In this document: positions 1,633 to 31,670 of the stretch, piece by piece
How positions within the stretch are numbered: the first letter of the stretch is position 1
How the letters are laid out: each line of letters begins with the position of its first letter
The notes under the pieces: generated by a model
What the model was told of the DNA's origin: nothing
Seen by the model: the letters and a program-made list of their open reading frames with translations, nothing else
The model's database searches: none
Virus record (IMG/VR): IMGVR_UViG_649989948_000010
Coordinates: 1-31,670 of that record
DNA: 31,670 nt
Source of the DNA: a virus
Taxonomy: Duplodnaviria > Heunggongvirae > Uroviricota > Caudoviricetes
Strand: one strand, 5' to 3'
Translations under genes and position numbers: made by a program

Positions 1633-1650
1633 AGCGTTTTCACCTCAGAA

Positions 1651-14384: not shown

Positions 14385-14461
14385 CTTCTTTCTCGATAGG
14401 TAAGTATATACCTATTTTTGCATTTGATTTTATGTCTGGCAATCAAATAAAACGCGCCAGA

Positions 14462-14499: not shown

Positions 14500-14567
14500 C
14501 TGGGTATGTGATTGGCTTACCCAGTACTATAAAGCTCTCTGTGGGCTTTATTTTAAGTAGGGGAACG

Positions 14568-15377: not shown

Positions 15378-15500
15378 GTAAGTCTCCTTCTGTTTGGTTA
15401 CATTTGCGTTTCGATGGCTGCATTTTGACTAAACCTATCAGGCGGAAAAGTATTAAATACAGGCAGAAAATGATTGAAAGGCGACTGTTCTTTAAAAAAA

Positions 15501-15527
15501 GCCTACTTTAAACTTTTTAAAGTAGGC
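15501..15527. terminator. Bidirectional intrinsic terminator after the exonuclease gene
   Basis: 12-bp stem GCCTACTTTAAA/TTTAAAGTAGGC, 3-nt loop, flanked by A7 and T-rich runs. Confidence 0.55.
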
Positions 15528-15534
15528 TTTTGTT

Positions 15535-16874: not shown

Positions 16875-16883
16875 TACTACTCC

Positions 16884-17303
16884 TTACAACTTCTTAGCGC
16901 CCTTAAGTAGTGCGCTACGTACAAATTGAGCCGCTTTTTTCAAAGTTTCTTCACTGGTTTCACAGACAACCGGATCTTTCCACTTACCTGACGCCGTGTT
17001 GAGAATGTTGATTTGGTTGCTATCCAGACAAACAGAGACGTAAAGCACCGTGCCACCAGCCAGCATCAAATGCATAGGAAACAGAGGCTTTTTACTGTCT
17101 TCACTGAACTGAGACATGGCGATGTTAATGGCTTCACCCACTTGTGTACCAACAAGCCCCTGCGCAGTTTCGAATATGGCACGAATAGCCAGACGAGCCT
17201 CTCGATCGCTCATAAGCGACCGGGAATGTTCGTCCGCTACACGAATCAAAGCCTCTGTTGTTTTCCGATCCAGTTCATCTTCAAGCAACATTTCACTAAA
17301 CAT
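16884..17303 (-). CDS. Hypothetical protein (139 aa)
   Basis: AAGGA RBS; stop abuts the next start. Confidence 0.45.
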   Translation of the reverse strand: MFSEMLLEDELDRKTTEALIRVADEHSRSLMSDREARLAIRAIFETAQGLVGTQVGEAINIAMSQFSEDSKKPLFPMHLMLAGGTVLYVSVCLDSNQINILNTASGKWKDPVVCETSEETLKKAAQFVRSALLKGAKKL

Positions 17304-17364
17304 TTTTTATCCTTAACCCATTTTGAGAGTTTTATTGTCGCAATGTCGAAGAGGCGAACAATTT

Positions 17365-18009
17365 CTAATGAACGGTCACTCGGCCACAGAACCGGTTTTC
17401 TATCTTTTCTACAGCGTTATCTAGCATTCTCATCACTGATCTGGCTCTTGCTTCAACTGTGCGATACCGGTTGGAAACGACGAAGGTTTGCAGATCTCCC
17501 CTTTGCGGATGCAGGTGAATTTTTGTCAGTTCCCCGCACATCAACGCATCAATACGAGCGACATACAGACGGTCTAATGATGCTCGTTGTGACCGCAAGT
17601 AATCTCGCTCTGAGAGAGCGACCCCCGGGCGTAGGCCAGCAATGGCGTTAAAGTTTGAAATAGCAGTTTTGTGGCAAAACTTTTCGATATCGAGGGCTAA
17701 CTCAATACACCGATCTTCATTTGTATGGCCGACCAAATCCAACGTGTAGGCCATAACATCAGCAGGTGTGCGATCGATAACAAAGCCTTCAGCACCACGC
17801 GTAAGTAGCTCTATATGCTTTGCTATTTCCATTTGAATCTGAAGCCGCTCATATAGAGGCATAGAATCACCTACTCGAACACCGAGGCGGCTCATCAAAC
17901 TTCCGACACCAGCATCCACGTAAGGGATTCCGTAATGTTTGTCGATATATTTAGCCAGGGTTGTTTTCCCACTGCCCTGAGCACCAGTGATCCCAATCCG
18001 GTAATCCAT
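17365..18009 (-). CDS. P-loop kinase, probable deoxynucleoside monophosphate kinase
   Basis: Walker A GAQGSGKTT; sits in the dNTP-synthesis operon with 1-nt overlap to the DHFR stop. Confidence 0.5.
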   Translation of the reverse strand: MDYRIGITGAQGSGKTTLAKYIDKHYGIPYVDAGVGSLMSRLGVRVGDSMPLYERLQIQMEIAKHIELLTRGAEGFVIDRTPADVMAYTLDLVGHTNEDRCIELALDIEKFCHKTAISNFNAIAGLRPGVALSERDYLRSQRASLDRLYVARIDALMCGELTKIHLHPQRGDLQTFVVSNRYRTVEARARSVMRMLDNAVEKIENRFCGRVTVH

Positions 18010-18485
18010 TACGACCTTCTGTATACGATCTGCGAAAAGCCAGGCTCTTCCTCGCTGGCTCGTTGGGTATAAGCTGTTTCAACAGGCACAAAGCCTAAAT
18101 TACGCATCATGCTTGCCGGGAAGAATGCATCGGCGTTTGGCACATCAACGCCGATGTGGGAGAGCCAAATCTCTTCAACATGCGGCATGAATAGCGAGTA
18201 AATTTGTTCCCCGCCAATCACCCACACAGGCTCTGGTAATCGCAACACATCATCCACACCAGCAGGGTAGAATCCATTTGGTACAAAGCCATGAGAGCGC
18301 GTCAAAACGAGGTTATGACGCTCTGGAAGAGGGCGTTTGAGACTTTCCATCGTTTTACGCCCCATAACGACAGTGGCGTTTTTGGTGAGTCTCTTAAATA
18401 GCTTCAGATCGGTAGAACAACGCCAGGGCAGTTCATTCGCTATGCCGATCTCATAGTTACGGCCAACAGCAGCTATCATCTTCAT
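18009..18485 (-). CDS. frd: Dihydrofolate reductase
   Basis: 158 aa; DHFR pattern (MIAAVGRNYEIG...LPW, VVMGRKT.ESL) and typical size. Confidence 0.85.
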   Translation of the reverse strand: MKMIAAVGRNYEIGIANELPWRCSTDLKLFKRLTKNATVVMGRKTMESLKRPLPERHNLVLTRSHGFVPNGFYPAGVDDVLRLPEPVWVIGGEQIYSLFMPHVEEIWLSHIGVDVPNADAFFPASMMRNLGFVPVETAYTQRASEEEPGFSQIVYRRS

Positions 18486-18895
18486 TTGCTCACCTCATAG
18501 ATGACCGGTCTATGATGAGAGTCAGCTAAAGCGGCACGGAGTCGAGGATCGTGCACCAGCGCAGCGATAAGCAGATCGCCTTTATGCTCCGCTAATGTGC
18601 GCTTAATATGCTTCTCATAACTAGTGCTATTCGGTACGAGGTGAAGCCAGTCGTAATCAACACCAAAATCTTTCAGCCATCGTTTAGTGGGCGCTTCAAG
18701 AGTTTCAGAGCGGCTACTGATAAGCACCACTTCAGCCCCTGAGCGAGCAAAACCACGCAACATACGGCTGGTGGGGAAAATGAGTTCATCACCGGCAATG
18801 AATTGGCCTGCATCCGAGTCAGATACAGATTTACGATGGCTGGTATTTGCCAGCACACCTTCAATTTCGCATAAGACATACATACCTCTTGCCAT
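18482..18895 (-). CDS. Hypothetical protein, possibly a HAD-like phosphatase or nucleotidase
   Basis: Start reset to ATG at 18895 (MARGMYVLCEIEGVLA), 2 nt after the thyA stop; motif resembles HAD motif I but with Glu in place of both Asp. Confidence 0.3.
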   Translation of the reverse strand: MARGMYVLCEIEGVLANTSHRKSVSDSDAGQFIAGDELIFPTSRMLRGFARSGAEVVLISSRSETLEAPTKRWLKDFGVDYDWLHLVPNSTSYEKHIKRTLAEHKGDLLIAALVHDPRLRAALADSHHRPVIYEVSK

Positions 18896-18896
18896 A

Positions 18897-20000
18897 TCAC
18901 ACCGCCACTGGAACCTTGATCCACGGTAGAGGGGCATAGCCAAGAATAAGAATCTCGTCCCATTTGAAATCATCCAGCTCAGACCATTCATTAGGGAATA
19001 TAACGACCGGATCTGAATGCTCTGGAGCCTGTCGTTGCATTAGCTCACACACACCTTCCATGTGGTTGTTGTACAAATGCACGTCAAAGCCAAAATGCAC
19101 AAATGCACCGGCCATGTGACCCGTAATCTTCGCGAGAAAATGAGTGAGAATGCCATAGCCAGCAATATTGAATGGCATACCAACAAAAGTGTCTACGCTA
19201 CGCTGTACGAGGCAGGAGTTGAGGATGCGTTTGGGGATTCCAAGTTCATCCAGTTCAGCTTCAGTAACACTGCCGTCTATCTCCAGATCGTATAGCATCT
19301 TGGTGTAGATAGACTCGTAACCGAGGCGACTGTGTTGAAGACCAATGTCAGTTGCCATCGTTAAACGGGTTTCAAAATCCAGCTCACGACTCCACAAAGA
19401 GAAGACAAAGTGGCAAGGTGGCAGTTTCATATCCTCAAGCTCGCCTACGTTCCATGCGTTAAGCATGATGCGACGATCGGTAGGGTTCATGCGCAGTGTA
19501 TCGACAATACGCTGTAGCTGATCGATTTCACGGGACAGCACTACGCGATCTTCACTGATACCCAGGTATCCCTCGACTTTGTACCCGCGTTCACGGAAAG
19601 TAGCGATCTTGCTCAGATATTCACTATGGCTCACGATGCGGGTATCTTCCCATCGACGCCACTGCTTACCGTAAACCGGCCCCAAATCGCCATTCTCATC
19701 GGCCCATGCATCCCAAATCTTAACGCCGTTATCCTTGAGAAATTGGATGTTGCCCGTGCCTTTCAGATACCACTCAAGTTCGACAAGCAGTGGCTTAAGA
19801 TTTACCGCCTTTCCAGAAATAAGCGGCACAGTCCCACCAGTAAGCATGTAGTAAGAGGGAACGTAACAGGTGCTTAAAGTACCAGTGCCTGTGCGATCAT
19901 CAGCCTGCACGCCGCTTTTAAGCACCGTCTCAATAACTTTTGCATACGATGCGTTTGTTACCTGACCGTTCGTATGCTCACGATTCAAAAGGAGTGACAC
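18897..20000 (-). CDS. thyA: Thymidylate synthase (ThyA family, long form with insertions)
   Basis: Motifs DRTGTGT, GDLGPVYGKQWR, active-site PCH, DxHxYxNH; start placed at in-frame GTG with GAGG RBS (ORF-track start at 20027 is also GTG). Confidence 0.85.
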   Translation of the reverse strand: MSLLLNREHTNGQVTNASYAKVIETVLKSGVQADDRTGTGTLSTCYVPSYYMLTGGTVPLISGKAVNLKPLLVELEWYLKGTGNIQFLKDNGVKIWDAWADENGDLGPVYGKQWRRWEDTRIVSHSEYLSKIATFRERGYKVEGYLGISEDRVVLSREIDQLQRIVDTLRMNPTDRRIMLNAWNVGELEDMKLPPCHFVFSLWSRELDFETRLTMATDIGLQHSRLGYESIYTKMLYDLEIDGSVTEAELDELGIPKRILNSCLVQRSVDTFVGMPFNIAGYGILTHFLAKITGHMAGAFVHFGFDVHLYNNHMEGVCELMQRQAPEHSDPVVIFPNEWSELDDFKWDEILILGYAPLPWIKVPVAV

Positions 20001-20171
20001 AAAAACCTCACAAAGATAAGTAACCACTTATTCATTGCGTGAGTTTACATTTATTGAGAGAACAAGACCAGACAGATAAAAAAATGGTGGCCATAGGCCA
20101 CCAAAAACGAATAGTTGTTTCAGAAATTTAACGCGCCAGCGCAATATACACAGATAGATAACTACCTACAA

Positions 20172-21041
20172 TTATTTTTTGATCATTCCGTACATTGCTG
20201 AGGCTTTAGCTTGCTCAACAAAGGAGGATAAATCGACATCACTATAGGTTGGAGACTTCAGAATCTTTCCATCGGAAATTCGAAAACCGATCATCTTATC
20301 GGTGCCATCAGCATGGCGAAATCCCAGGTCAGAAGAGTCGTATTTGCAGTTGGCCACAGCATGGCGACGCTCTTCGGCATCTGCAGGCCATAATTTTGTC
20401 ATGTTGGACCGATGAATTTCGCCAACCAGCTCGACGACATTGATACCGAGAAAATCAGCCAGTCGATAAGTCATCATGCACGCCACATAGATTTTGTTCA
20501 TTACACGGCGCAGTTCCTGAATCAGCTCAGAATCCTTAACAGTCTTCTTCTCAAGTTTATCTGCCAGCTCTTCGAGCATACATGACGCCTCACGAGCTTC
20601 CTGAAATGGCATTGCCATATCATCGAAAACAGTGTTACCAGGCACAAAAATTGTCTGCATAAAGCGATCAATGCTCTGTTCCTGCGTGTAATAAGTCATG
20701 CCGGTAGAAATACCACCTTTGATGGCGACCATCGTACCAACACCAACGTATAAAAAGTCGGCCATTGCATCCAGCAGTTGCTCAATATCCCCATTCATTG
20801 CGGCTGGAATACCTTCCACTACAGCTTCTTCATGAATCAGGCTTGCACGGAGACGAAGCAGCTCTGGTGTCGGCATAACGCGTCTCGGATGCTGGAAGAG
20901 TTCATGAAACTGATCGACCATCTTGTAAATACTTTCAGTGGCTACACCATGGCCTTCATGCAACTCATATGGTTCTGGCTTAAATCCAATGAGTCGATCG
21001 GTGGCAAGTTTCAGGTGGTCAGTCAGTTTGGTAAAGTTCAT
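20172..21041 (-). CDS. Hypothetical protein, possibly a MazG-like nucleotide pyrophosphohydrolase
   Basis: 289 aa; perfect AAGGAG RBS; C-terminal region (LGINVVELVGEIHRSNMTKL...DGK) resembles all-alpha NTP-PPase motifs. Confidence 0.4.
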   Translation of the reverse strand: MNFTKLTDHLKLATDRLIGFKPEPYELHEGHGVATESIYKMVDQFHELFQHPRRVMPTPELLRLRASLIHEEAVVEGIPAAMNGDIEQLLDAMADFLYVGVGTMVAIKGGISTGMTYYTQEQSIDRFMQTIFVPGNTVFDDMAMPFQEAREASCMLEELADKLEKKTVKDSELIQELRRVMNKIYVACMMTYRLADFLGINVVELVGEIHRSNMTKLWPADAEERRHAVANCKYDSSDLGFRHADGTDKMIGFRISDGKILKSPTYSDVDLSSFVEQAKASAMYGMIKK

Positions 21042-21118
21042 GCTAGTTTTGCTCCTTCTTAATTCTTGTGATCCATTGTGGCCCAGCGTTGCCAGGCCAC
21101 ATAATGCTTTGTATCGGT

Positions 21119-22261
21119 TTACAGGTCTGCAAACTGGCTTAGAGAAGCCTTATCCACGGTAGAATCGATCTGACCTACCAGATATGTGCTTTGCTCTGCC
21201 TCTTGTGGTGCAATTTGCAGTGTGTCGGTTAACAACCACTTGTTCATCCAGACCAGCGGATCAGTGGTAACTTCTGGAAATAAAGCCTTCAGGCCAAGAC
21301 GATTCATAGCCAGATTGGTGCGGTATTTTACATAGGTTTTGAGAATATCCGCGTTTAAACCAATCATCGAACCGTCTTTGAAGAGATAGTCTGCCCAGTT
21401 CATTTCTTGTTCGGCGACTGATTTCATGGTGTCGTAAATGACGTTTTCTTCATCAGCAGCAATCTCTTTCCACAATAAACCTTCGCGACCGGTACGCATG
21501 AAGCGGATCATGCGTTCAGTTCCTTCGCAATGCAGAGCTTCATCACGGGCAATAAAGCGCATAATTTTGGTGTTACCCTCAAGCAACTTCCGTTCACCAA
21601 AGGCAAACGTACATGCAAAACTTACGTAGAAACGGATCGCCTCAAGCGCATTAATGGACACCAACGTGCGGAAAAGCTGACGATGCAAAGGGTATGGCTC
21701 CCAGCCATATTCATTTACGTACAGACGCTCAAATTCCTTCTCACCTAACGACTGGCGCTCGCAGGTCATCCCATAAAGCCTGTCATATTCAGCAGAGATA
21801 CTGATCGCTCGGTTGATGATTTCTTCATCCGTAACAATACCGTCAAAAACAATGCTCGGATCGTCCACCATGCCACGAATAATGTGGGTGTAGCTGCGGC
21901 TATGGATAGTCTCAGAGAAAGACCATGTTTCAACCCACGTTTCCAGTTCAGGAATAGAGATAAGCGGCAGCAGCGTTGCATTTGGGCTACGTCCCTGAAC
22001 TGAATCGAGTAACGTTTGATAACGGAGATTGCTCAGAAAAATGTGACGTTCGTGGTCCCGCAGCTTCGTGTTGAAGTCGATACGATCGCTCGAAATATCA
22101 ACTTCTTCCGGCCGCCAGAAGAAAGACAATTGACGTTCAATCAACTTTTCAAAATCACGGTATTTTTGCTGATCGTAACGTGCCACGTTGACAGATTGTC
22201 CGAGGAACATAGGCTCTTTGGTTGCATCATTAGCACCCAAACGGAACGTTGAATATGACAT
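21119..22261 (-). CDS. nrdB: Ribonucleotide reductase class Ia small subunit
   Basis: 380 aa; collinear with E. coli NrdB ([60 protein letters not shown]); divergent, phage-type. Confidence 0.92.
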
Positions 22262-22292
22262 GTGTTTTTCCTTTTTCTTTTTTGGTGCGTTT

Positions 22293-22305
22293 AAACAAGT
22301 TGTTA
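22293..22305 (-). promoter_or_regulatory. Palindrome-like motif AAACAAGTTGTTA upstream of nrdB
   Basis: Third copy (one mismatch) about 38 nt upstream of the nrdB ATG, with extra half-site at 22313-22324 and the same GTGTTTTTCC leader. Confidence 0.35.
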
Positions 22306-22340
22306 TCTTATGTGTTTAAACAAGGCTTACAAATCAAAGA

Positions 22341-22359
22341 GAAGGTGGGGATATCCCCC
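22341..22359 (-). terminator. Stem-loop between nrdA and nrdB (possible attenuator)
   Basis: GGTGGGG/CCCCACC stem with ATATC loop, directly after the nrdA stop and followed on the minus strand by a T-rich tract. Confidence 0.35.
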
Positions 22360-22367
22360 ACCATATG

Positions 22368-24683
22368 TCAGATTTTGCAGGCTCCGTCGCACTCATCTTC
22401 TGGCTCGACGGCTACAGCTTGCGCCAGTGGATTCTGCGGTTCGTCGTCATCACGTTTTCCTGCACCATCTCTGGTGTTGTGGTAGTAAAGCGTTTTAACT
22501 CCCATCTTGTAGGCGAGAAGCAAATCTGACAGTAGCGTCATCATTGGGACTTTATCGCCTTCAAAGCGAGAAGGGTCATAGTTGGTATTGGCTGAAATAG
22601 CCTGGTCAAAGAACTTCTGGATGATCGCCACCTTTGTCAGATAGCCGCGGTTGTCCGGCATATCCCACAGGTATTCATACTGTTCCTTCAGTTTTTCAAA
22701 CTCAGGCACGACCATCTTAACGATGCCGTCCTTAGAAGATTTCACCGACACCGGGCCACGAGGCGGTTCGATGCCGTTGGTGGAATTAGTGATCTGGCTG
22801 GAAGTCTCGCATGGCATTTGTGCCGTCAGTGTGGAGTTGCGAAGGCCGTATTTTGCAATACGTTCACGCAGTTCTTCCCACGGCATCTTTAACTCAAAGT
22901 TGGTTTCGCCACTTTCGTCTAATGAAGAACGGTAATGGTCGATCGGCAACTGACCAATTGCGTACTTGGTCTGCTCAAACCAGTCACACTCACCTTTTGC
23001 TTCAGCAAGTCGGCAGCTGGCATCAAGAAGGTAATACTGGATAGCTTCGAATGTTTCATGCACCAGTTTATTGCCAGCGGTATCAGAATAACGAACGCCA
23101 TTCTTTGCCAGGTAATAAGCAAAGTTGGTTACACCAATTCCCAAGCTACGACGAGCTTTGGCAGGCACTTCGGCTGCCTCCATCGGATAGTCTTGATAAT
23201 CCAGTAACGAATCCAGTGCAGCAACGGCATAGAACGCCACCTCTTTAAGAGACTCCAGTGAACGGATGGCTCCGAGGTTAAAAGCGGATAAAGTGCATAG
23301 CGCGATCTCACCGTTCGGGTCGTCGGTAAATGCCAGTGGACGGGTGGGTAGGGTGATCTCCATACACAGGTTTGACTGGCGGACAGGTGCAAGAGCAGGA
23401 ATGAAAGCGCCATGCTCATTAATATGATCGACGTTCGCAATATAAATTCGGCCCGTGGACGCTCGTTCCTGCATCAGAGATGAGAACAGCTCAATGGCAG
23501 GTACTGACTTCTTGCGAATTGAATCATCGGCTTCGTATTTATGGTACAGCTTTTCAAACAGCTCCTGGTCTGTGAAGAAGGCTTCGTACATATCAGGCAC
23601 ATCATGCGGGCTGAACAGAGTGATGTTCTCGCTTCTGACGAGTCGACGGTACATTAGACGGTTACTCATGACGCCGTAATCAAGATGGCGAACGCGGTTT
23701 TCATCAATACCACGGTTATTTTTCACCACCAGCAGACTTTCAACTTCAAGATGCCAGATCGGGTAAAACGCTGTTGCTGCGCCACCACGAACACCACCTT
23801 GCGAACAAGATTTAACAGCCGTCTGGAAATGCTTCAGGAATGGAATAACTCCGGTATGGGTGGCTTCACCATTGCGGATCTCGCTGCCCAGCGCACGGAT
23901 ACGGCCAAAACCAATACCAATTCCAGCACGACGTGAAACGTAGTCGATAATTGCGGCTGAAGCTGCACTAATCCCTTTCAGGCTATCGCCAGACTCAATC
24001 AGCACACAACTGGAGAACTGACGGGTTGGAGTACGGACGCCGGCCATGATTGGTGTGGGCAGAGACAGTTTGAACGTACTTGTAACGTCATAGAAACCTT
24101 TGACCATCTCCATACGTGTTTTGCCAGCGCAGTCGTCTTCCCAATTCTGGAACAGACACATGCCTACCAGCATATAGATATGTTGCGGCCCCTCATGAAT
24201 CTCACCAGTAACACGGTTTTGAACGAGGTATTTGCTTTGCAACTGCACCGTAGCTGCATAGCCAAAAAGATCGTCACGTTTCGGCTTAATGTAATTGCCG
24301 AGTTCTTCGATCTCTTCAAACGAATAATGTGTCAGCAAATCCTTGTCATAAACGCCCTTGTTAACGTTCTTGACAATGTGTTGGTAGAAGTTCGGATAGT
24401 CGTAACGACCGAAGGCATCTTTGCGGATTTTAAAAATGTTCAGGCGGGCAGCCACCTGTGAGTAATTTGGTGCTTCTGGTGAGATCAAATCAGCGGCAGA
24501 TTTAACCAAAGCCTCATGCAACTGGCTGGTGGTCATCCCATCAAAAATGCTGGCCGCAGCTCCCATTGCTACAGCGGATGCGCTTACACCACGAATGCCT
24601 TCTACGCCATACATTACGACGCGGTTGTATTTTTCTTCGGATAACGGCTCTGTTTGGCCGTTACGTTTTACGATGCTTATCAT
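22368..24683 (-). CDS. nrdA: Ribonucleotide reductase class Ia large subunit
   Basis: 771 aa; ATP-cone-like N-terminus, C-terminal Tyr pair; collinear with E. coli NrdA. Confidence 0.92.
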   Translation of the reverse strand: MISIVKRNGQTEPLSEEKYNRVVMYGVEGIRGVSASAVAMGAAASIFDGMTTSQLHEALVKSAADLISPEAPNYSQVAARLNIFKIRKDAFGRYDYPNFYQHIVKNVNKGVYDKDLLTHYSFEEIEELGNYIKPKRDDLFGYAATVQLQSKYLVQNRVTGEIHEGPQHIYMLVGMCLFQNWEDDCAGKTRMEMVKGFYDVTSTFKLSLPTPIMAGVRTPTRQFSSCVLIESGDSLKGISAASAAIIDYVSRRAGIGIGFGRIRALGSEIRNGEATHTGVIPFLKHFQTAVKSCSQGGVRGGAATAFYPIWHLEVESLLVVKNNRGIDENRVRHLDYGVMSNRLMYRRLVRSENITLFSPHDVPDMYEAFFTDQELFEKLYHKYEADDSIRKKSVPAIELFSSLMQERASTGRIYIANVDHINEHGAFIPALAPVRQSNLCMEITLPTRPLAFTDDPNGEIALCTLSAFNLGAIRSLESLKEVAFYAVAALDSLLDYQDYPMEAAEVPAKARRSLGIGVTNFAYYLAKNGVRYSDTAGNKLVHETFEAIQYYLLDASCRLAEAKGECDWFEQTKYAIGQLPIDHYRSSLDESGETNFELKMPWEELRERIAKYGLRNSTLTAQMPCETSSQITNSTNGIEPPRGPVSVKSSKDGIVKMVVPEFEKLKEQYEYLWDMPDNRGYLTKVAIIQKFFDQAISANTNYDPSRFEGDKVPMMTLLSDLLLAYKMGVKTLYYHNTRDGAGKRDDDEPQNPLAQAVAVEPEDECDGACKI

Positions 24684-24700
24684 GTATCACCAAATAAAGA

Positions 24701-24722
24701 GGGCCACTAAATATAGTGGCCC
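24701..24722 (-). terminator. Stem-loop between the RuvC-like gene and nrdA
   Basis: 9-bp stem GGGCCACTA/TAGTGGCCC with 4-nt loop, followed on the minus strand by TCTTTATTT just before the nrdA RBS. Confidence 0.4.
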
Positions 24723-24756
24723 ATGTTAATAGATAAGCACTTACCTATCAATGAAA

Positions 24757-25326
24757 TCAAATGAGAGACTTAAGAACATCGCGCACCTGGCGGAACTGAT
24801 CTGTTTGCATACCGGTATGGATGGCAGCCACCGCATCAGCCAAATGTTCGTTTTTGTTCACGAGAACATCCTGTCCAGATTGCTTACGACGCAGCCACGG
24901 TGCTTTAGGGTGTTTTTTCGTAGCCCACTGGATAATCTCTTCTTTCGATGTAGTAAGTTTATTGCCGACAAAATGCTTGATTTCGTTTGGAGTAACCTGG
25001 ATCAATGGCTTATCCACACACGCAAGTACACCGATACAAATACCGTAAGACGTCTGCGAACGAGAGTTTTGGCTCCCAACCGGTAGCTCACAAAAAACCA
25101 TATTTGCCTTATCAATGATTGGCTTCGCAACACGCCATATTTCACTGGCTCGGCGCAGATCGTCACTGTTCACACGAACGGTCTTTTTGTTACTCCCCGC
25201 TTTAGTCTCAACAAGAGTAAGGCCGTGAATCTCAAGTTCGTCCGTCTCAAGGTCTAAAGTGCCCACAGCAAGCCCAAAGTTGCTCATTGAGGGATCAACA
25301 CCAACTACGCTGATTTTTTTACTCAT
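24757..25326 (-). CDS. RuvC-like Holliday junction resolvase
   Basis: 189 aa; N-terminal VVGVDPS (compare RuvC GIDPG), acidic residues at positions expected for the RuvC fold; strong AAGGAG RBS. Confidence 0.55.
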   Translation of the reverse strand: MSKKISVVGVDPSMSNFGLAVGTLDLETDELEIHGLTLVETKAGSNKKTVRVNSDDLRRASEIWRVAKPIIDKANMVFCELPVGSQNSRSQTSYGICIGVLACVDKPLIQVTPNEIKHFVGNKLTTSKEEIIQWATKKHPKAPWLRRKQSGQDVLVNKNEHLADAVAAIHTGMQTDQFRQVRDVLKSLI

Positions 25327-25335
25327 ATAGTCTCC

Positions 25336-26079
25336 TTACCATGTTCCCCATATAGGGTTTTCCAATAATCTCGCCTCCAACGAATTGGCTACTATTGCCG
25401 TTTGCAACGTTGGTTGGGGATAGTTTGCAAAGTCTGAATACTCATTTTCCTGCGTGACACGTTTATCTGCGGCATGTTTAACACCACTTGCTATGAAATG
25501 ACGCATGATGCCCAACAGCCTCCGACTGTCTGCACTATCGTTTGCTAAAACATGAGGGAGCTGAAGTTCGATTTCTACCATTTCTCCATACTTCCCAACA
25601 AACTGTAGTTTGTCCGCACTGTACTTTTTATCCCTCCTTTGGATAAGGAAACCAGTAAAAGCATCACCTGGCGATGCCAAACTATCTACCCGCTTATTGG
25701 CAAGTCGAATAAGGTTCGTGAAAGCCATACAGTGATGCGCACCCATTCCCCCAAAGAACCCTTCGCTATTAATGTTAAGATCTTCAGTTTCATGGGATGC
25801 AATAAACCCAGGCCCGACGTTGGGAAGATATCCCCCCTCAACAAAAGGATTAATCAGGATCGGCGCAATACATCCAGGTGGTAGTGATTTCAAACTTTGC
25901 ATCAATGGCGTCTCGGATATTAGACCAAGCAACGCGGCGAATTGTACTCCGTCAATATTGTTGCTGCCCCACAGAATACGTGGAGCCGCACCATTGGAAG
26001 TATGCCCATTGATCAGTTTTATCGACTGCATCACTGCAAATACCTGCAAAAACTGCGAGCGGCTTAATTTAAACGACAT
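25336..26079 (-). CDS. Hypothetical protein (247 aa)
   Basis: AGAGGGG RBS; lies between the truncated SbcC-like gene and the RuvC-like gene; no family recognised. Confidence 0.5.
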   Translation of the reverse strand: MSFKLSRSQFLQVFAVMQSIKLINGHTSNGAAPRILWGSNNIDGVQFAALLGLISETPLMQSLKSLPPGCIAPILINPFVEGGYLPNVGPGFIASHETEDLNINSEGFFGGMGAHHCMAFTNLIRLANKRVDSLASPGDAFTGFLIQRRDKKYSADKLQFVGKYGEMVEIELQLPHVLANDSADSRRLLGIMRHFIASGVKHAADKRVTQENEYSDFANYPQPTLQTAIVANSLEARLLENPIWGTW

Positions 26080-26396
26080 AGCTGCGCCCCTCTTTAACTT
26101 CCAGCGTAATAGTTTCCCGGAACCATGACTTCATCTCTTTATGGGAGATAATCAGCACAGTACCTCGCTCGCGAGCTTTGGACTCCAGAATACCCATGAG
26201 GCGTTCAAGACCGGCTGTATCGAGTGCATCGTCAATTTCGTCGCCGATAAACAAATCGATGTTTTTACTCGCCCGGTTACTAACCAGATCCTGCAATGCC
26301 AAAGAACACGCAATGCGAACCTTCCGCTTCTCACCACCAGAGAGGGTCTGGAACGACTTACTTGAACCTTTCTTCTGCACACTAATGTTGAATTTG
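26069..26396 (-). pseudogene. 3' fragment of an SbcC/Rad50-like (ABC-type) ATPase gene, truncated by IS66 insertion
   Basis: Encodes only the C-terminal signature LSGGEKRK, Walker B/D-loop LFIGDEIDDALD and H-loop ISHK; reading frame runs into the IS66 left end at 26397. Confidence 0.55.
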
Positions 26397-26482
26397 TGTA
26401 AGCGTAAACTGACCGCCGTATGTAGCCATCAGACGAGAATTGGTAACTTAGACGCCCATCTGATATAGACGGACATCTAAGT

Positions 26483-26908
26483 ATGGAATTACAGGACTGG
26501 CGAAAAGAACCTCGTAAAAACTATTCGAATGAATTCAAACTTCGTATGGTGGAACTGGCATCACAACCTGGAGCTTGTGTTGCACAGATTGCACGTGAAA
26601 ATGGCGTCAATGATAATGTTATTTTCAAATGGCTCAGGCTCTGGCAGAACGAAGGGCGTGTTTCACGGCGTCTTCCGGTAACGACCTCTTCTGACACTGG
26701 CGTTGAATTATTACCTGTAGAAATAACGCCGGATGAGCAGAAAGAACCTGTGGCGGCCATTGCGCCGTCTTTATCCACTTCCACTCAGACCAGAGTCAGT
26801 GCCAGTTCCTGCAAGGTGGAATTCCGTCACGGTAACATGACGCTGGAAAATCCATCGCCAGAGCTGCTCACAGTGTTGATCCGTGAACTGACCGGGAGGG
26901 GAAGATGA
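26483..26908 (+). CDS. IS66-family accessory protein (orfA)
   Basis: 141 aa HTH-like protein; 4-bp overlap with orfB. Confidence 0.85.
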   Translation: MELQDWRKEPRKNYSNEFKLRMVELASQPGACVAQIARENGVNDNVIFKWLRLWQNEGRVSRRLPVTTSSDTGVELLPVEITPDEQKEPVAAIAPSLSTSTQTRVSASSCKVEFRHGNMTLENPSPELLTVLIRELTGRGR

Positions 26909-27255
26909 TCTCACTCCCATCAGGTACCCGTATCTGGCTCGTTGCCGGCGTTACCGATATGCGTAAATCCTTCAACGGACTGGGAGAACAGGTACAACAT
27001 GTGCTGAATGATAATCCCTTCTCCGGTCACCTGTTTATCTTCCGTGGCCGACGGGGTGACACCGTCAAAATTCTTTGGGCTGATGCTGATGGTCTGTGCC
27101 TGTTCACCAAACGCCTGGAGGAAGGCCAGTTTATCTGGCCTGCGGTACGTGACGGCAAGGTATCCATTACCCGCTCGCAACTGGCAATGCTCCTCGATAA
27201 GCTGGACTGGCGTCAGCCAAAAACATCCAGCCGTAACTCACTGACAATGTTGTAA
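26905..27255 (+). CDS. IS66-family accessory protein (orfB)
   Basis: 116 aa; conserved IS66 orfB pattern (LWADADGLCLFTKRLEEGQF). Confidence 0.85.
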   Translation: MISLPSGTRIWLVAGVTDMRKSFNGLGEQVQHVLNDNPFSGHLFIFRGRRGDTVKILWADADGLCLFTKRLEEGQFIWPAVRDGKVSITRSQLAMLLDKLDWRQPKTSSRNSLTML

Positions 27256-27285
27256 AAAACTCCTGACCGCATTATAAAAACGGTC

Positions 27286-28899
27286 ATGAGTCAGAAATAC
27301 CTCATTCGCATCGCAGAGCTGGAAAGGTTGCTCTCTGAGCAGGCTGAAGCCCTCCGTCAGAAAGACCAGCAACTGAGTCTGGTTGAAGAGACGGAAGCCT
27401 TCCTGCGCTCTGCACTGACACGTGCCGAAGAAAAGATCGAAGAAGATGAACGGGAAATAGAACATCTGCGGGCTCAGATAGAAAAACTGCGCCGGATGCT
27501 GTTCGGTACCCGTTCTGAAAAACTGCGTCGTGAAGTTGAACTGGCTGAGGCTCTGCTGAAACAACGTGAACAGGACAGCGATCGTTACAGTGGGCGGGAA
27601 GACGATCCTCAGGTTCCCCGCCAGTTGCGACAGTCGCGCCATCGTCGTCCGTTACCGGCACACCTTCCCCGTGAAATACACCGCCTGGAGCCAGAAGAAA
27701 GCTGTTGCCCGGAGTGTGGCGGTAAGCTGGATTATCTGGGGGAAGTCAGCGCTGAACAGCTGGAACTGGTGAGCAGTGCCCTGAAAGTGATCCGCACAGA
27801 ACGGGTAAAAAAAGCCTGTACAAAATGTGACTGTATTGTTGAAGCACCGGCGCCGTCTCGCCCGATAGAGCGTGGTATCGCGGGCCCCGGATTACTTGCC
27901 CGCGTGTTAACGGGAAAATACTGCGAACATCTGCCACTGTATCGTCAGAGTGAAATCTTTGCCCGCCAGGGTGTCGAACTGAGCCGGGCCTTACTCTCCA
28001 ACTGGGTTGACGCGTGCTGCCAGTTAATGACACCGGTGAATGATGCCCTGTACCGTTATGTAATGAACACCCGCAAGATTCACACTGATGACACACCGGT
28101 AAAGGTACTGGCACCGGGTCAGAAAAAGGCGAAAACAGGGCGTATCTGGACGTATGTCCGGGATGATCGCAATGTGGGTTCGTCATCTCCTCCAGCGGTC
28201 TGGTTCGCGTACTCGCCGAACCGGCAGGGGAAACACCCGGAGCAACACCTCCGCCCCTTCCGGGGTATCCTGCAGGCGGATGCGTTCACAGGTTACGACA
28301 GGTTGTTCAGTGCAGAACGTGAAGGTGGTGCACTGACAGAAGTTGCGTGCTGGGCCCATGCCCGGCGAAAAATCCACGATGTATACATCAGCAGCAAAAG
28401 TGCGACGGCAGAAGAAGCACTGAAGCGAATCAGTGAACTGTACGCCATCGAGGATGAAATACGGGGATTACCGGAGTCAGAGCGTCTTGCCGTCAGGCAG
28501 CAGCGAAGCAAAGTGTTACTGACGTCGCTGCATGAATGGATGGTGGAGAAGAATGGTACGCTGTCGAAAAAATCCAGACTGGGCGAAGCGTTCAGCTATG
28601 TACTGAATCAGTGGGATGCCCTCTGTTATTACAGTGATGACGGTCTGGCGGAGGCGGATAATAATGCTGCGGAAAGAGCGCTTCGTGCAGTCTGTCTCGG
28701 AAAGAAAAACTTTATGTTCTTTGGCAGCGATCACGGCGGCGAGCGTGGAGCACTGTTGTACGGGCTGATCGGCACCTGCCGTCTGAACGGTATCGATCCG
28801 GAAGCGTATCTGCGCCATATCCTGAGCGTACTGCCGGAATGGCCTTCCAACCGAGTTGATGAACTCCTGCCATGGAACGTAGTACTCACCAATAAATAA
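27286..28899 (+). CDS. IS66-family transposase (orfC)
   Basis: 537 aa; coiled-coil N-terminus, CxxC zinc-finger-like region, conserved catalytic core. Confidence 0.85.
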   Translation: MSQKYLIRIAELERLLSEQAEALRQKDQQLSLVEETEAFLRSALTRAEEKIEEDEREIEHLRAQIEKLRRMLFGTRSEKLRREVELAEALLKQREQDSDRYSGREDDPQVPRQLRQSRHRRPLPAHLPREIHRLEPEESCCPECGGKLDYLGEVSAEQLELVSSALKVIRTERVKKACTKCDCIVEAPAPSRPIERGIAGPGLLARVLTGKYCEHLPLYRQSEIFARQGVELSRALLSNWVDACCQLMTPVNDALYRYVMNTRKIHTDDTPVKVLAPGQKKAKTGRIWTYVRDDRNVGSSSPPAVWFAYSPNRQGKHPEQHLRPFRGILQADAFTGYDRLFSAEREGGALTEVACWAHARRKIHDVYISSKSATAEEALKRISELYAIEDEIRGLPESERLAVRQQRSKVLLTSLHEWMVEKNGTLSKKSRLGEAFSYVLNQWDALCYYSDDGLAEADNNAAERALRAVCLGKKNFMFFGSDHGGERGALLYGLIGTCRLNGIDPEAYLRHILSVLPEWPSNRVDELLPWNVVLTNK

Positions 28900-28993
28900 G
28901 CGTCAATACGGTGCTCCGTTGACGCTTACTTCAGGTGCATCCGGTCCCCCTTGTTTTTGATACAAAACACGCCTCACAGACGGGTAATTTTGC

Positions 28994-29002
28994 TTATCCA
29001 CA
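28994..29002 (+). promoter_or_regulatory. DnaA box (TTATCCACA), possible remnant of an IncFII-type plasmid origin
   Basis: Exact DnaA-box consensus in a non-coding stretch upstream of the CPBP-pemI-pemK block; origin assignment is inference. Confidence 0.3.
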
Positions 29003-29756
29003 TTAAACTGCAAGGGACTTCCCCATAAGGTTACAATCGTTAATGTCATAAAGCGCCAGCCGTCAGCCCTACAGGGTGCAATGTATCTTTTAAACACCTG
29101 TTTATATCTCCTTTAAACTACTTAATTACATTCATTTAAAAAGAAAACCTATTCACTGCTTGTCCTATGGACAGACAGATATGCACCTCCCACCGTAAAC
29201 GGCGGGCCCCAACCGGAGCCACTTTAGTTACAACACACAAAACCAACCTCCAGAAAAACCCCGAACCAGCGCAGAACTGAAACCACAAAGCCCCTCCCTC
29301 ATAACTGAAAAGCGGCCCCGCCCCGGCCCTTCGGGCCGGAACAGAGTCGCTTTTAATTATGAATGTTGTAACTACATCTTCATCGCTGTCAGTCTTCTCG
29401 CTGGAAGTTCTCAGTACACGCTCGTAAGCGGCCCTCACGGCCCGCTAACGCGGAGATACGCCCCGACTTCGGGTAAACCCTCGTCGGGACCACTCCGACC
29501 GCGCACAGAAGCTCTCTCATGGCTGAAAGCGGGTATGGTCTGGCAGGGCTGGGGATGGGTAAGGTGAAATCTATCAATCAGTACCGGCTTACGCCGGGCT
29601 TCGGCGGTTTTACTCCTGTATCATATGAAACAACAGAGTGCCGCCTTCCATGCCGCTGATGCGGCATATCCTGGTAACGATATCTGAATTGTTATACATG
29701 TGTATATACGTGGTAATGACAAAAATAGGACAAGTTAAAAATTTACAGGCGATGCA

Positions 29757-30410
29757 ATGATTCAAACACGTAATCAATATCTGCAGTTTATGCTGGTTAT
29801 GCTGGCTGCATGGGGCATTAGTTGGGGAGCCAGATTTGTCATGGAGCAGGCCGTTCTGCTTTATGGATCAGGAAAAAACTATTTGTTCTTCAGTCATGGT
29901 ACTGTTCTGATGTACCTGCTGTGTGTTTTCCTGGTATACCGCCGTTGGATAGCTCCGCTACCGGTCGTTGGTCAGCTGCGCAACGTTGGCGTACCGTGGC
30001 TGGTCGGTGCGATGGCCGTGGTGTATGTCGGTGTATTTCTGCTCGGTAAGGCGCTGGCTCTGCCTGCTGAGCCATTTATGACGAAACTTTTTGCCGATAA
30101 GTCCATACCTGACGTGATCCTGACGTTGCTGACCATCTTTATCCTTGCCCCGTTGAATGAGGAAACGCTGTTCCGGGGGATTATGCTGAACGTCTTCCGT
30201 TCACGGTACTGCTGGACGATGTGGCTGGGGGCGCTGATAACGTCGTTGTTGTTCGTCGCCGCGCACAGCCAGTATCAGAACCTGCTGACACTGGCAGAAC
30301 TGTTCCTGGTGGGGTTGATTACATCAGTGGCCAGGATCAGAAGTGGTGGCCTGCTGCTGCCGGTATTGCTGCATATGGAAGCAACCACGCTGGGTTTACT
30401 GTTTGGTTGA
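29757..30410 (+). CDS. CPBP-family intramembrane protease-like protein (CAAX protease family)
   Basis: 217 aa polytopic membrane protein with EETLFRG, FVAAHSQY and LLH motifs. Confidence 0.7.
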   Translation: MIQTRNQYLQFMLVMLAAWGISWGARFVMEQAVLLYGSGKNYLFFSHGTVLMYLLCVFLVYRRWIAPLPVVGQLRNVGVPWLVGAMAVVYVGVFLLGKALALPAEPFMTKLFADKSIPDVILTLLTIFILAPLNEETLFRGIMLNVFRSRYCWTMWLGALITSLLFVAAHSQYQNLLTLAELFLVGLITSVARIRSGGLLLPVLLHMEATTLGLLFG

Positions 30411-30502: not shown

Positions 30503-30760
30503 ATGCATACCACCCGACTGAAGAGGGTTGGCGGCTCAGTTATGCTGACCGTCCCACCGGCACTGCTGAATGCGCTGTCTCTGGGCACAGATAATGAAGT
30601 TGGCATGGTCATTGATAATGGCCGGCTGATTGTTGAGCCGTACAGACGCCCGCAATATTCACTGGCTGAGCTACTGGCACAGTGTGATCCGAATGCTGAA
30701 ATATCAGCTGAAGAACGAGAATGGCTGGATGCACCGGCGACTGGTCAGGAGGAAATCTGA
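30503..30760 (+). CDS. pemI: Antitoxin PemI (Kis)
   Basis: 85 aa, matches plasmid PemI as recalled (MHTTRLKRVGGSVMLTVPPALL...); GGAGGTG RBS. Confidence 0.9.
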   Translation: MHTTRLKRVGGSVMLTVPPALLNALSLGTDNEVGMVIDNGRLIVEPYRRPQYSLAELLAQCDPNAEISAEEREWLDAPATGQEEI

Positions 30761-30761
30761 C

Positions 30762-31094
30762 ATGGAAAGAGGGGAAATCTGGCTTGTCTCGCTTGATCCT
30801 ACCGCAGGTCATGAGCAGCAGGGAACGCGGCCGGTGCTGATTGTCACACCGGCGGCCTTTAATCGCGTGACCCGCCTGCCTGTTGTTGTGCCCGTAACCA
30901 GCGGAGGCAATTTTGCCCGCACTGCCGGCTTTGCGGTGTCGTTGGATGGTGTTGGCATACGTACCACAGGTGTTGTACGTTGCGATCAACCCCGGACAAT
31001 TGATATGAAAGCACGGGGCGGAAAACGACTCGAACGGGTTCCGGAGACTATCATGAACGAAGTTCTTGGCCGCCTGTCCACTATTCTGACTTGA
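30762..31094 (+). CDS. pemK: Toxin PemK (Kid), MazF-family endoribonuclease
   Basis: 110 aa starting MERGEIWLVSLDPTAGHEQ; the ORF-track entry 30630-31094 is over-extended upstream. Confidence 0.9.
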   Translation: MERGEIWLVSLDPTAGHEQQGTRPVLIVTPAAFNRVTRLPVVVPVTSGGNFARTAGFAVSLDGVGIRTTGVVRCDQPRTIDMKARGGKRLERVPETIMNEVLGRLSTILT

Positions 31095-31471: not shown

Positions 31472-31670
31472 GGTGATGCTGCCAACTTACTGATTTAGTG
31501 TATGATGGTGTTTTTGAGGTGCTCCAGTGGCTTCTGTTTCTATCAGCTGTCCCTCCTGTTCAGCTACTGACGGGGTGGTGCGTAACGGCAAAAGCACCGC
31601 CGGACATCAGCGCTATCTCTGCTCTCACTGCCGTAAAACATGGCAACTGCAGTTCACTTACACCGCTTCT
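31472..31670 (+). mobile_element. IS1 left end (partial; runs off the window)
   Basis: GGTGATGCTGCCAACTTACTGATTTAGTGTATGATGGTG matches the IS1 terminal inverted repeat. Confidence 0.85.
31527..31670 (+). CDS. insA: IS1 InsA (5' partial)
   Basis: GTG start; translation [47 protein letters not shown] matches InsA. Confidence 0.8.

What the first reader, a model, noticed from the sequence alone, without database searches (positions are those of the whole stretch)
26069..28929. IS66 insertion without target-site duplication joins the phage module to plasmid backbone
The element truncates the SbcC-like gene, and its two flanks (GAATTTGT versus TTCAGGTG) do not form an 8-bp duplication. That points to IS-mediated deletion or recombination between two IS66 copies rather than simple insertion; the rest of the ATPase gene and the plasmid replication-initiator gene are absent.
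Basis: partly seen in the sequence, partly recalled or inferred. Interest (0 to 1): 0.4.

Follow-up and report, generated by a model that had tools for sequence, protein, structure and literature searches.

The report
Collapsed ISEc23 repeat in draft contig
The insertion sequence lacks matching flanks because this draft contig merged three identical copies into one and joined the neighbours of two different copies; nothing was deleted, so the finding is ordinary and most likely an assembly artefact.

Summary
A complete 2,532-bp ISEc23 (IS66 family) lies at 26398-28929. It cuts an SbcC-like ATPase gene, and its flanks are GAATTTGT and TTCAGGTG.

The deletion reading is wrong. The window is the whole contig ADWS01000048.1 of the 2010 short-read draft of E. 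coli MS 145-7. The finished genome of that strain has three identical ISEc23 copies.

- The left flank belongs to a copy in an SSU5-like phage-plasmid. Its GAATTTGT mate and the other 5/6 of the ATPase gene lie beside another copy.
- The right flank belongs to a copy in an IncFIA/IncFII plasmid, which has a perfect TTCAGGTG duplication and repA on its other side.
- Four other draft contigs hold the remaining four flanks. Each stops 78-232 nt inside the IS, so the IS interior was assembled only once.

The link between the two window flanks is therefore unsupported. It is most likely a collapsed-repeat chimera (about 0.8). A real IncFII::phage-plasmid recombinant in the 2010 DNA remains possible (about 0.15).

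In the finished genome the phage-plasmid really is fused to a plasmid through two direct ISEc23 copies with reciprocal duplications. That plasmid is a conjugative IncC plasmid, not the IncFII one. Every component is already known, so interest is low.

The parts
26069..26397 (-). 3' fragment (329 of 1,917 nt; C-terminal ~108 aa) of the SMC/SbcC-like ATPase gene of an SSU5-like phage-plasmid.
   Evidence: Pfam gives SMC_N and SbcC_Walker_B hits on the fragment, both below the curated cut-offs. On the intact 638-aa homologue, AAA_23 and SMC_N are above cut-off. Joining this flank to the copy-A flank minus 8 bp restores colinearity with intact pSTEC388_1 over 12,398 bp at 99.67%.
26390..26397 (+). 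GAATTTGT: one copy of the 8-bp target duplication made when ISEc23 entered the ATPase gene.
   Evidence: The mate GAATTTGT lies directly outside the IRR of ISEc23 on draft contig ADWS01000042.1 and at copy A of NZ_CP146657.1. Uninterrupted relatives have it once.
26398..28929 (+). Complete ISEc23 (IS66 family), 2,532 bp. In this contig it is the single assembled representative of three identical copies.
   Evidence: 100% identical to many annotated ISEc23 copies. Three exact copies exist in the finished genome of the same strain. Four other draft contigs end 78-232 nt inside it.
26398..26422 (+). Left terminal inverted repeat (IRL), GTAAGCGTAAACTGACCGCCGTATG.
   Evidence: 20 of 25 positions match the reverse complement of the right end.
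26483..26908 (+). tnpA (141 aa, helix-turn-helix accessory protein).
   Evidence: Pfam HTH_Tnp_1, E = 5e-12. RefSeq annotates it as an IS66-like accessory protein TnpA.
26905..27255 (+). tnpB (116 aa, IS66 Orf2-like accessory protein).
   Evidence: Pfam TnpB_IS66, E = 1e-36.
27286..28899 (+). tnpC (537 aa, DDE transposase).
   Evidence: Pfam LZ_Tnp_IS66, zf-IS66, DDE_Tnp_IS66 (E = 5e-98) and DDE_Tnp_IS66_C.
28905..28929 (+). Right terminal inverted repeat (IRR), ending ...GTTGACGCTTAC.
28930..28937 (+). TTCAGGTG: one copy of the 8-bp target duplication of a different ISEc23 insertion, the one in the IncFII replicon.
   Evidence: In NZ_CP146658.1 the same IS copy has TTCAGGTG on both sides. Draft contig ADWS01000064.1 ends repA...TTCAGGTG|78 nt of IRL. 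The empty site, with one TTCAGGTG, is seen in pECAZ161_3.
28930..29756 (+). IncFII origin/repA4 region, with a DnaA-box consensus TTATCCACA at 28994-29002.
   Evidence: 100% identical to NZ_CP146658.1 downstream of repA. The DnaA box was located. The layout repA1-ori-repA4-tir-pemIK is described for pEC958 (PMC4398462). That this stretch is the origin is an inference.
29757..30410 (+). CPBP/Rce1-like intramembrane protease, the 'tir' of older IncF annotations.
   Evidence: Pfam Rce1-like, E = 3e-17. Annotation.
30503..31094 (+). pemI (30503-30760) and pemK (30762-31094) toxin-antitoxin pair of the IncF backbone.
   Evidence: ORFs, annotation, Pfam families, pemK start.
31472..31670 (+). First 199 nt of an IS1 copy, where the contig stops.
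   Evidence: The IS1 inverted repeat GGTGATGCTGCC... starts at 31472. IS1A is annotated at this place in NZ_CP146658.1. The contig length of ADWS01000048.1 equals the window length.

Best explanation
The window is a 2010 short-read draft contig of E. coli MS 145-7. The strain carries three sequence-identical ISEc23 copies on its plasmids, and the assembler built the 2.5-kb IS interior only once.

The assembler attached that single IS to one left neighbour and one right neighbour:
- The left neighbour is the 3' end of the SbcC-like ATPase gene of an SSU5-like phage-plasmid.
- The right neighbour is the origin/pemIK side of an IncFIA/IncFII plasmid.
- The other four neighbours were left as contig ends.

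Each half-junction in the window is real, but the two belong to different insertion events. Each event has its own 8-bp duplication (GAATTTGT and TTCAGGTG). That is why the two flanks do not match.

The remaining 5/6 of the ATPase gene and IncFII repA each lie beside another ISEc23 end carrying the matching 8-mer.

In the long-read genome the ATPase 3' end is linked through ISEc23 to an IncC conjugative plasmid. This forms a 198-kb IncC::phage-plasmid cointegrate bounded by two direct ISEc23 copies with reciprocal duplications.

Shown: the identity of the contig, the three copies and their six flanks, the restored empty sites, and the dangling contig ends. Inferred: that the assembler's pairing of the two flanks was arbitrary.
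For: (1) The window is the whole of ADWS01000048.1 (31,670 bp) from GCA_000179115.1.

(2) Window 1-27058 matches NZ_CP146657.1 with 0 mismatches and 2 homopolymer gaps. Window 26398-31670 matches NZ_CP146658.1 at 100%. So the two flanks map to two different replicons of the same strain.

(3) The flanks of the three copies in the finished genome are:
- A: CTGTAGAA|IS|GAATTTGT
- B: GAATTTGT|IS|CTGTAGAA
- C: TTCAGGTG|IS|TTCAGGTG
The window has B's left flank and C's right flank.

(4) The draft itself holds the other four half-junctions as contig ends that reach only a short way into the IS:
- ADWS01000042.1: 232 nt
- ADWS01000072.1: 213 nt
- ADWS01000021.1: 194 nt
- ADWS01000064.1: 78 nt
The window contig likewise stops 199 nt into IS1.

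(5) Removing the IS and one 8-mer restores colinearity with intact relatives on both sides. This covers 12,398 bp at 99.67% for the phage-plasmid and 2,992 bp at 99.97% for IncFII.

(6) None of 5,426 complete E. coli genomes has both window junctions on one IS. The best coverage of the 5-kb junction query is 80%. Among 72,556 plasmids, only the MS 145-7 record carries the ATPase|ISEc23 junction.
Against: - No reads were available, so I cannot show that no molecule with this pairing existed in the 2010 DNA.
- The assembler and library types of the draft are not known to me. If long-insert mate pairs guided the path through the IS, the pairing could carry real information.
- The strain demonstrably forms ISEc23-bounded cointegrates (IncC::phage-plasmid). 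An IncFII::phage-plasmid form is therefore biologically plausible, and its junction would be identical to the window.
- The finished assembly was made about 14 years later and may sample a different plasmid state.
Confidence: 0.8

Rival explanations
1. The junction is physically real. In the 2010 culture, or a sub-population of it, the phage-plasmid and the IncFII plasmid were joined. This happened either by RecA-dependent recombination between two identical ISEc23 copies or by cointegrate-forming transposition from the IncFII copy. Either route gives a hybrid IS flanked by GAATTTGT and TTCAGGTG.
For: - The window junction has exactly the orientation and flanks expected of such a cointegrate.
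- The same strain carries an analogous ISEc23-bounded IncC::phage-plasmid cointegrate in its long-read assembly.
- Mismatched 8-bp IS66 flanks are an accepted signature of recombination between copies (PMC6778807).
- The IncFII copy is the ancestral one. Its site is shared with JX127248.1, NZ_CP015077.1 and NZ_OZ040209.1, whereas the phage-plasmid and IncC sites are unique to the strain.
Against: - The reciprocal junction (repA..TTCAGGTG|IS|GAATTTGT..ATPase-5') is assembled nowhere. Both of those flanks dangle in the draft.
- The finished genome pairs them differently.
- An assembly that leaves four of six flanks dangling had no information with which to pair any of them.
- No complete E. coli genome shows this pairing.
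Confidence: 0.15
2. One reading: ISEc23 caused an adjacent deletion that removed the 5' part of the ATPase gene and the IncFII replication-initiator gene, leaving one IS between the survivors.
For: Within the window alone, both sequences are missing and the flanks do not match.
Against: - Both 'missing' segments exist in the same draft assembly and in the finished genome.
- Each abuts an ISEc23 end with the matching 8-mer.
- The flanks come from two different replicons, so no single-molecule deletion can relate them.
Confidence: 0.02
3. The IS ends were mis-mapped, and a proper 8-bp duplication appears once the ends are placed correctly.
For: None. The repeat finder did not report the imperfect terminal repeats, so the ends needed independent confirmation.
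Against: - The ends are fixed by full-length 100% identity to other ISEc23 copies.
- They are also fixed by three copies with clean 8-bp duplications or reciprocal duplications.
- Gapless empty-site reconstructions confirm them.
Confidence: 0.01

Closest known systems
ISEc23 (IS66 family; tnpA-tnpB-tnpC, 8-bp target duplication)
   Same: 100% identical over 2,532 bp to annotated ISEc23 copies on E. coli and Klebsiella plasmids. It has the three-ORF layout with the IS66 Pfam domains. It shows 8-bp duplications at each of the three insertion sites in the strain.
   Different: Nothing about the element itself differs. Only the pairing of flanks in this contig is unusual.
Collapsed-repeat (chimeric) contigs in short-read draft assemblies
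   Same: A repeat of 2.5 kb with three identical copies is represented once. One left and one right unique flank are attached to it. The other four flanks end 78-232 nt inside the repeat. The long-read assembly of the same strain resolves three copies with a different pairing.
   Different: The chosen pairing happens to mimic a biologically plausible IS-mediated cointegrate junction. The sequence alone therefore cannot exclude that it is real.
IS-mediated replicon fusion (cointegrate bounded by two direct IS copies with reciprocal target duplications), and hybrid IS66 copies with mismatched 8-bp flanks after recombination (pAt15955 deletion, PMC6778807)
   Same: In the finished genome, copies A and B are direct repeats at the two IncC/phage-plasmid junctions. 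They carry CTGTAGAA|IS|GAATTTGT and GAATTTGT|IS|CTGTAGAA. The logic of reading flank 8-mers is the same as in PMC6778807.
   Different: In the Agrobacterium case recombination deleted DNA between two copies on one replicon. Here two replicons are fused and nothing is lost. For the window's own pairing (phage-plasmid with IncFII), the reciprocal junction has not been observed.
SSU5-supergroup phage-plasmids of E. coli (e.g. pSTEC388_1, Escherichia phages CMS-2020a, Cyrano, PhiR41_1)
   Same: Window 14000-26397 is 98-99.5% identical to these phages and 76% identical to SSU5. It is 99.8% identical to ~110-kb non-mobilizable plasmids typed rep_cluster_488.
   Different: This copy has ISEc23 in its SbcC-like ATPase gene, a site unique to MS 145-7 among 72,556 plasmids. 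In the finished genome it is fused to an IncC plasmid.

Membership tests
IS66 family / ISEc23 | Three consecutive ORFs: tnpA (HTH), tnpB (IS66 Orf2-like) and tnpC (DDE transposase with leucine-zipper and zinc-finger N-terminal parts). | tested here: met
   Pfam HTH_Tnp_1; TnpB_IS66 (1e-36); LZ_Tnp_IS66, zf-IS66, DDE_Tnp_IS66 (5e-98) and DDE_Tnp_IS66_C.
IS66 family / ISEc23 | Imperfect terminal inverted repeats beginning 5'-GTAAGCG. | tested here: met
   The two ends match at 20 of 25 positions and both begin GTAAGCGT. That this motif is typical of the family comes from my own knowledge.
IS66 family / ISEc23 | 8-bp target-site duplication. | tested here: met
   Copy C has TTCAGGTG on both sides. 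Copies A and B carry GAATTTGT and CTGTAGAA reciprocally. Each 8-mer occurs once in the corresponding empty site. It is not met on the window's own IS, which is the point of the finding.
IS66 family / ISEc23 | Near-identity to the ISEc23 reference sequence. | tested here: met
   100% identical over the full length to copies that RefSeq names 'IS66-like element ISEc23 family'. The ISfinder reference itself was not available.
IS-mediated cointegrate between the phage-plasmid and the IncFII plasmid (the junction as drawn in the window) | A second, direct IS copy carrying the reciprocal junction (repA..TTCAGGTG|IS|GAATTTGT..ATPase-5') on the same molecule. | tested here: not met
   It is absent from the finished genome and from all 5,426 complete E. 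coli genomes. In the draft both of these flanks are dangling contig ends, so the draft is silent.
IS-mediated cointegrate between the phage-plasmid and the IncC plasmid (finished genome) | Two direct IS copies at the two replicon junctions, with reciprocal target duplications, and both replicons present. | tested here: met
   Copies at 21972-24503 and 107129-109660 lie on the same strand and have reciprocal 8-mers. The record is typed IncC + rep_cluster_488.
IS-mediated adjacent deletion | The DNA next to one IS end is lost from the genome. | tested here: not met
   The ATPase 5' part and IncFII repA are present in both assemblies of the strain.
Collapsed-repeat assembly chimera | More unique flanks than assembled repeat copies, with the surplus flanks ending a read-length or so inside the repeat. 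| tested here: met
   Six flanks were found, and only this one contig was found running through the IS. The four surplus flanks end 78-232 nt inside it. The draft was not searched exhaustively.
Collapsed-repeat assembly chimera | No read or mate pair spans the repeat linking the two joined flanks. | not testable with these tools
Logan contigs of SRR088910 stop 30 nt inside the IS.
SbcC/Rad50-type SMC ATPase (the interrupted gene) | N-terminal Walker A and C-terminal signature/Walker B halves separated by a long coiled coil, with a neighbouring SbcD-type metallophosphoesterase. | tested here: met
   The intact 638-aa homologue hits AAA_23 (63 bits) and SMC_N (52 bits) above the cut-offs. SbcC_Walker_B is below its cut-off at 20.5 bits. 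A metallophosphoesterase gene lies next to it. Activity was not tested.

The most novel reading that the evidence does not exclude
The window captures a real alternative state of a three-plasmid system in E. coli MS 145-7. The plasmids are an SSU5-like phage-plasmid, an IncC plasmid and an IncFIA/IncFII plasmid. In this reading, identical ISEc23 copies let the phage-plasmid swap between fusion with the IncFII plasmid (2010 DNA) and fusion with the IncC plasmid (finished genome). A non-conjugative phage-plasmid would then repeatedly hitch onto different conjugative replicons.
Probability: 0.15. Interest if true: 0.3.

Novelty: already known. Interest (0 to 1): 0.1.

Why it matters
This matters mainly as a caution. 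An IS without a target duplication in a short-read contig should not be read as a deletion or a fusion until the copy number of the IS and the fate of its other flanks in the same assembly are known. Here all of that could be recovered from public data.

The real biology underneath is of modest interest and of a known kind. A phage-plasmid was inactivated in its SbcC-like gene by ISEc23. It is fused to a conjugative IncC plasmid through two IS copies. It would matter only to people tracking how phage-plasmids exchange DNA with conjugative plasmids.

Tried and rejected
- The inverted-repeat finder did not report the IS termini because they are imperfect. The ends were fixed instead by identity and empty-site comparisons.
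- A scan of IMG/VR viral contigs for the ATPase|IRL junction found nothing.
- I looked for a complete genome or plasmid with both window junctions on one IS and found none.
- I tested whether the IncC insertion site was inherited. pNDM-KN and p1605752AC2 carry ISEc23 elsewhere (p1605752AC2 has the duplication TTCTGATT), and pNDM-KN has the MS 145-7 site empty. The IncC site is therefore strain-specific.
- I could not decide whether the IncC::phage-plasmid cointegrate arose by cointegrate-forming transposition or by recombination between two simple insertions. Both give identical products.
- Han et al. 2001 on IS679/IS66 transposition (PMC95320) is not held in the library.
- Three other contigs encoding the same 103-aa ORF (L007-L009) turned out to be uninterrupted ATPase genes on fragmentary contigs, not further copies of the insertion.
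- The deletion reading and the mis-mapped-ends reading were rejected for the reasons given under the rival explanations.
Full report
**What is in the sequence.** Window 26398-28929 is a complete IS66-family element of 2,532 bp.
- It has three ORFs in a row: tnpA at 26483-26908, tnpB at 26905-27255 and tnpC at 27286-28899. All carry the expected Pfam domains.
- Its termini are imperfect inverted repeats that begin GTAAGCGT, matching at 20 of 25 positions.
- It is 100.0% identical over its whole length to many copies that RefSeq annotates as ISEc23 on E. coli and Klebsiella plasmids. In that search, 969 records match at 99% or better.
- To the left, on the minus strand, lie the last 329 nt of a 1,917-nt ATPase gene. 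The intact 638-aa product scores above the Pfam cut-offs for AAA_23 and SMC_N. It scores weakly for SbcC_Walker_B, and it has a metallophosphoesterase gene as a neighbour.

The only correction is that 26069 is the stop codon of the gene fragment, not the end of the IS.

**Where the two sides come from.**
- The left 26.4 kb holds nrdAB, thymidylate synthase, dfrA51, a type I restriction-modification system and apbC. It is 99.5-99.8% identical to ~110-kb non-mobilizable E. coli plasmids typed rep_cluster_488.
- The part of it searched against phages (window 14000-26397) is 98-99.5% identical to Escherichia phages CMS-2020a, Cyrano and PhiR41_1, and 76% identical to Salmonella phage SSU5. This side is an SSU5-supergroup phage-plasmid.
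- The right 2.7 kb is the IncFII region that follows repA: the origin/repA4 region, a CPBP protease ('tir'), pemI, pemK and then IS1. The layout is the one described for pEC958 in PMC4398462.

**The source of the window.** The 103-aa ORF of the truncated ATPase gene was looked up in public assemblies. The window proved to be the whole of contig ADWS01000048.1 (31,670 bp) of GCA_000179115.1, the 2010 draft of E. coli MS 145-7.

A finished genome of the same strain exists (GCF_037094535.1).
- Window 1-27058 matches its plasmid unnamed1 (NZ_CP146657.1, 198,406 bp) with no mismatch and two single-base homopolymer gaps.
- Window 26398-31670 matches its plasmid unnamed2 (NZ_CP146658.1, 80,697 bp) at 100%.
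- The two flanks of the IS in the window therefore map to two different replicons of one strain.

**The three copies and their six flanks.** The finished genome has three exact ISEc23 copies. Written in the orientation of the IS, their flanks are:

| Copy | Position | Left flank | 8-mers | Right flank |
|---|---|---|---|---|
| A | unnamed1 21972-24503 | Ig-like gene | CTGTAGAA, IS, GAATTTGT | 5' part of the ATPase gene |
| B | unnamed1 107129-109660 | 3' part of the ATPase gene | GAATTTGT, IS, CTGTAGAA | DUF4165 gene and tra genes |
| C | unnamed2 72648-75179 | IncFII repA | TTCAGGTG, IS, TTCAGGTG | CPBP, pemIK |

The window has the left flank of copy B and the right flank of copy C.

Copy C is a plain insertion with a perfect 8-bp duplication. 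Removing it and one 8-mer gives a sequence colinear with the IS-free site of pECAZ161_3 over 2,992 bp at 99.97%, where TTCAGGTG occurs once.

Joining the window's left flank to the right flank of copy A, minus one GAATTTGT, gives a sequence colinear with intact pSTEC388_1. The match covers 12,398 bp at 99.67%, runs through the junction, and restores the 638-aa ATPase ORF. Uninterrupted metagenomic and SRA contigs show the same empty site.

Copies A and B are direct repeats with reciprocal duplications. They sit at the two junctions between the phage-plasmid and an IncC conjugative plasmid. The record is typed IncC + rep_cluster_488, MOBH, MPF_F. This is the classical structure of an IS-bounded cointegrate.

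**No deletion.** Neither is.
- In the finished genome, the 5' 1,596 nt of the ATPase gene, its metallophosphoesterase neighbour and the phage-plasmid RepB gene lie next to copy A.
- IncFII repA lies 120 bp from copy C.
- The same holds for the 2010 draft itself. I predicted the hybrid ORFs that cross the other junctions and looked them up by exact sequence. All carry MS 145-7 draft accessions: EFO55988.1, EFO55437.1, EFO57149.1 and EFO55480.1.

**The draft holds the IS interior only once.** The contigs that carry those ORFs were fetched and their ends measured:

| Contig | Length | How it ends |
|---|---|---|
| ADWS01000042.1 | 39,032 bp | Starts with 232 nt of the IS right end, then GAATTTGT and the ATPase 5' part |
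| ADWS01000072.1 | 2,807 bp | Ends ...CTGTAGAA plus 213 nt of the IS left end |
| ADWS01000021.1 | 77,760 bp | Starts with ~194 nt of the IS right end, then CTGTAGAA and the DUF4165/tra genes |
| ADWS01000064.1 | 7,097 bp | Ends repA...TTCAGGTG plus 78 nt of the IS left end |

The window contig itself stops 199 nt inside IS1. All six half-junctions of the finished genome were therefore already present in 2010.

Of the five draft contigs that carry these six half-junctions, only the window contig runs through the IS. The other four break a read-length or so inside it. That is the signature of a collapsed repeat. The assembler had no means of pairing flanks across 2.5 kb of identical sequence. 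The pair it attached to the single IS consensus carries no evidence of physical linkage.

Consistent with this, none of 5,426 complete E. coli genomes has both window junctions on one IS; the best coverage is 80%. Among 72,556 plasmids, the ATPase|ISEc23 junction occurs only in the MS 145-7 record.

**Most likely history (inferred).**
- The IncFII site of copy C is shared with several unrelated records, including JX127248.1, NZ_CP015077.1 and NZ_OZ040209.1.
- The phage-plasmid site and the IncC site are unique to this strain. Other IncC plasmids carry ISEc23 elsewhere, and pNDM-KN has this site empty.
- The IncFII copy is therefore probably the source. ISEc23 then entered the ATPase gene and the IncC Ig-like/DUF4165 gene.
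- The IncC::phage-plasmid fusion arose in one of two ways. One is cointegrate-forming transposition from one element into the other. The other is RecA recombination between two simple insertions. The two routes give identical products and cannot be told apart here.

**What remains open.** A molecule with the window's pairing would be the expected product of recombination between copy B and copy C, or of transposition from the IncFII plasmid into the phage-plasmid.

Mismatched IS66 flank 8-mers are an accepted sign of such recombination (PMC6778807). The strain clearly tolerates such fusions.

Without reads I cannot exclude that the 2010 DNA contained it. I put this at about 0.15, against about 0.8 for an arbitrary assembler join. 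The remainder is shared among refuted or marginal readings.

**Comparison with what is known, and verdict.** Every component is a known entity: ISEc23, an SSU5-like phage-plasmid and the IncFII ori-pemIK backbone. Both candidate explanations are textbook phenomena (a collapsed-repeat chimera, and recombination between IS copies).

Its deletion interpretation is refuted. Its own 'would refute' clause, an assembly artefact, is the best-supported outcome. Interest is low.

Noticed in passing
L001 6973-9504 and L002 9130-11661 (NZ_CP146657.1 21972-24503 and 107129-109660): In the finished genome, the ~110.7-kb SSU5-like phage-plasmid is fused to an ~82.6-kb IncC conjugative plasmid. The fusion runs through two direct ISEc23 copies with reciprocal 8-bp duplications (GAATTTGT and CTGTAGAA) and gives a 198-kb replicon typed IncC + rep_cluster_488. 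This would make a non-conjugative phage-plasmid transferable by conjugation. It is also presumably too large to package.
   Followed up: partly
window 28930-29002; L003 13181-13300: The IncFII copy of ISEc23 sits 120 bp after the repA stop codon and 64 bp before a DnaA-box consensus (TTATCCACA, 28994-29002). It therefore lies between the initiator gene and the presumed oriR and separates them by 2.5 kb. The same insertion is kept in several other plasmids (JX127248.1, NZ_CP015077.1, NZ_OZ040209.1). The MS 145-7 plasmid also has an IncFIA replicon.
   Followed up: partly
window 12826 and 15501: The only differences between the draft contig and the finished plasmid over 27 kb are two homopolymer lengths (T8 vs T9, A7 vs A8). 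The first falls in rnhA, which is an open ORF in the window (12198-12875) but is annotated 'frameshifted' in the finished genome. This suggests a residual indel error in the finished assembly.
   Followed up: partly
window 1-1205; L004 27114-29147: The phage-plasmid carries a copy of the housekeeping gene apbC (105-1205). Just beyond the contig end, in the finished genome, it also carries metG. The draft contig stops 54 nt before the metG start, perhaps because metG is repeated on the chromosome. apbC is shared by related ~110-kb plasmids.
   Followed up: partly
window 2335-8379: A complete type I restriction-modification system (hsdM, hsdS, hsdR) lies in the phage-plasmid. Its specificity subunit falls in a low-GC stretch (about 0.35-0.40). 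About 43 plasmids cover at least 80% of window 1-9000, which contains it.
   Followed up: partly
window 18009-18485: The phage-type dihydrofolate reductase gene here is annotated dfrA51 in RefSeq. It was reported to raise trimethoprim MICs when expressed in E. coli (PMC12217456).
   Followed up: no
L012 714-3053 (ADWS01000042.1): The phage-plasmid encodes a 779-aa RecA-like protein that carries an intein with a LAGLIDADG homing-endonuclease domain (Pfam Intein_splicing, LAGLIDADG_3, RecA_N).
   Followed up: no
L001 9473-11905 (NZ_CP146657.1 24472-26904): The protein annotated 'Ig-like domain-containing protein' WP_000257148.1 (810 aa) starts 32 nt inside the ISEc23 left end. It is a hybrid ORF created by the insertion into a 1,828-aa IncC gene, not a genuine gene product.
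   Followed up: yes
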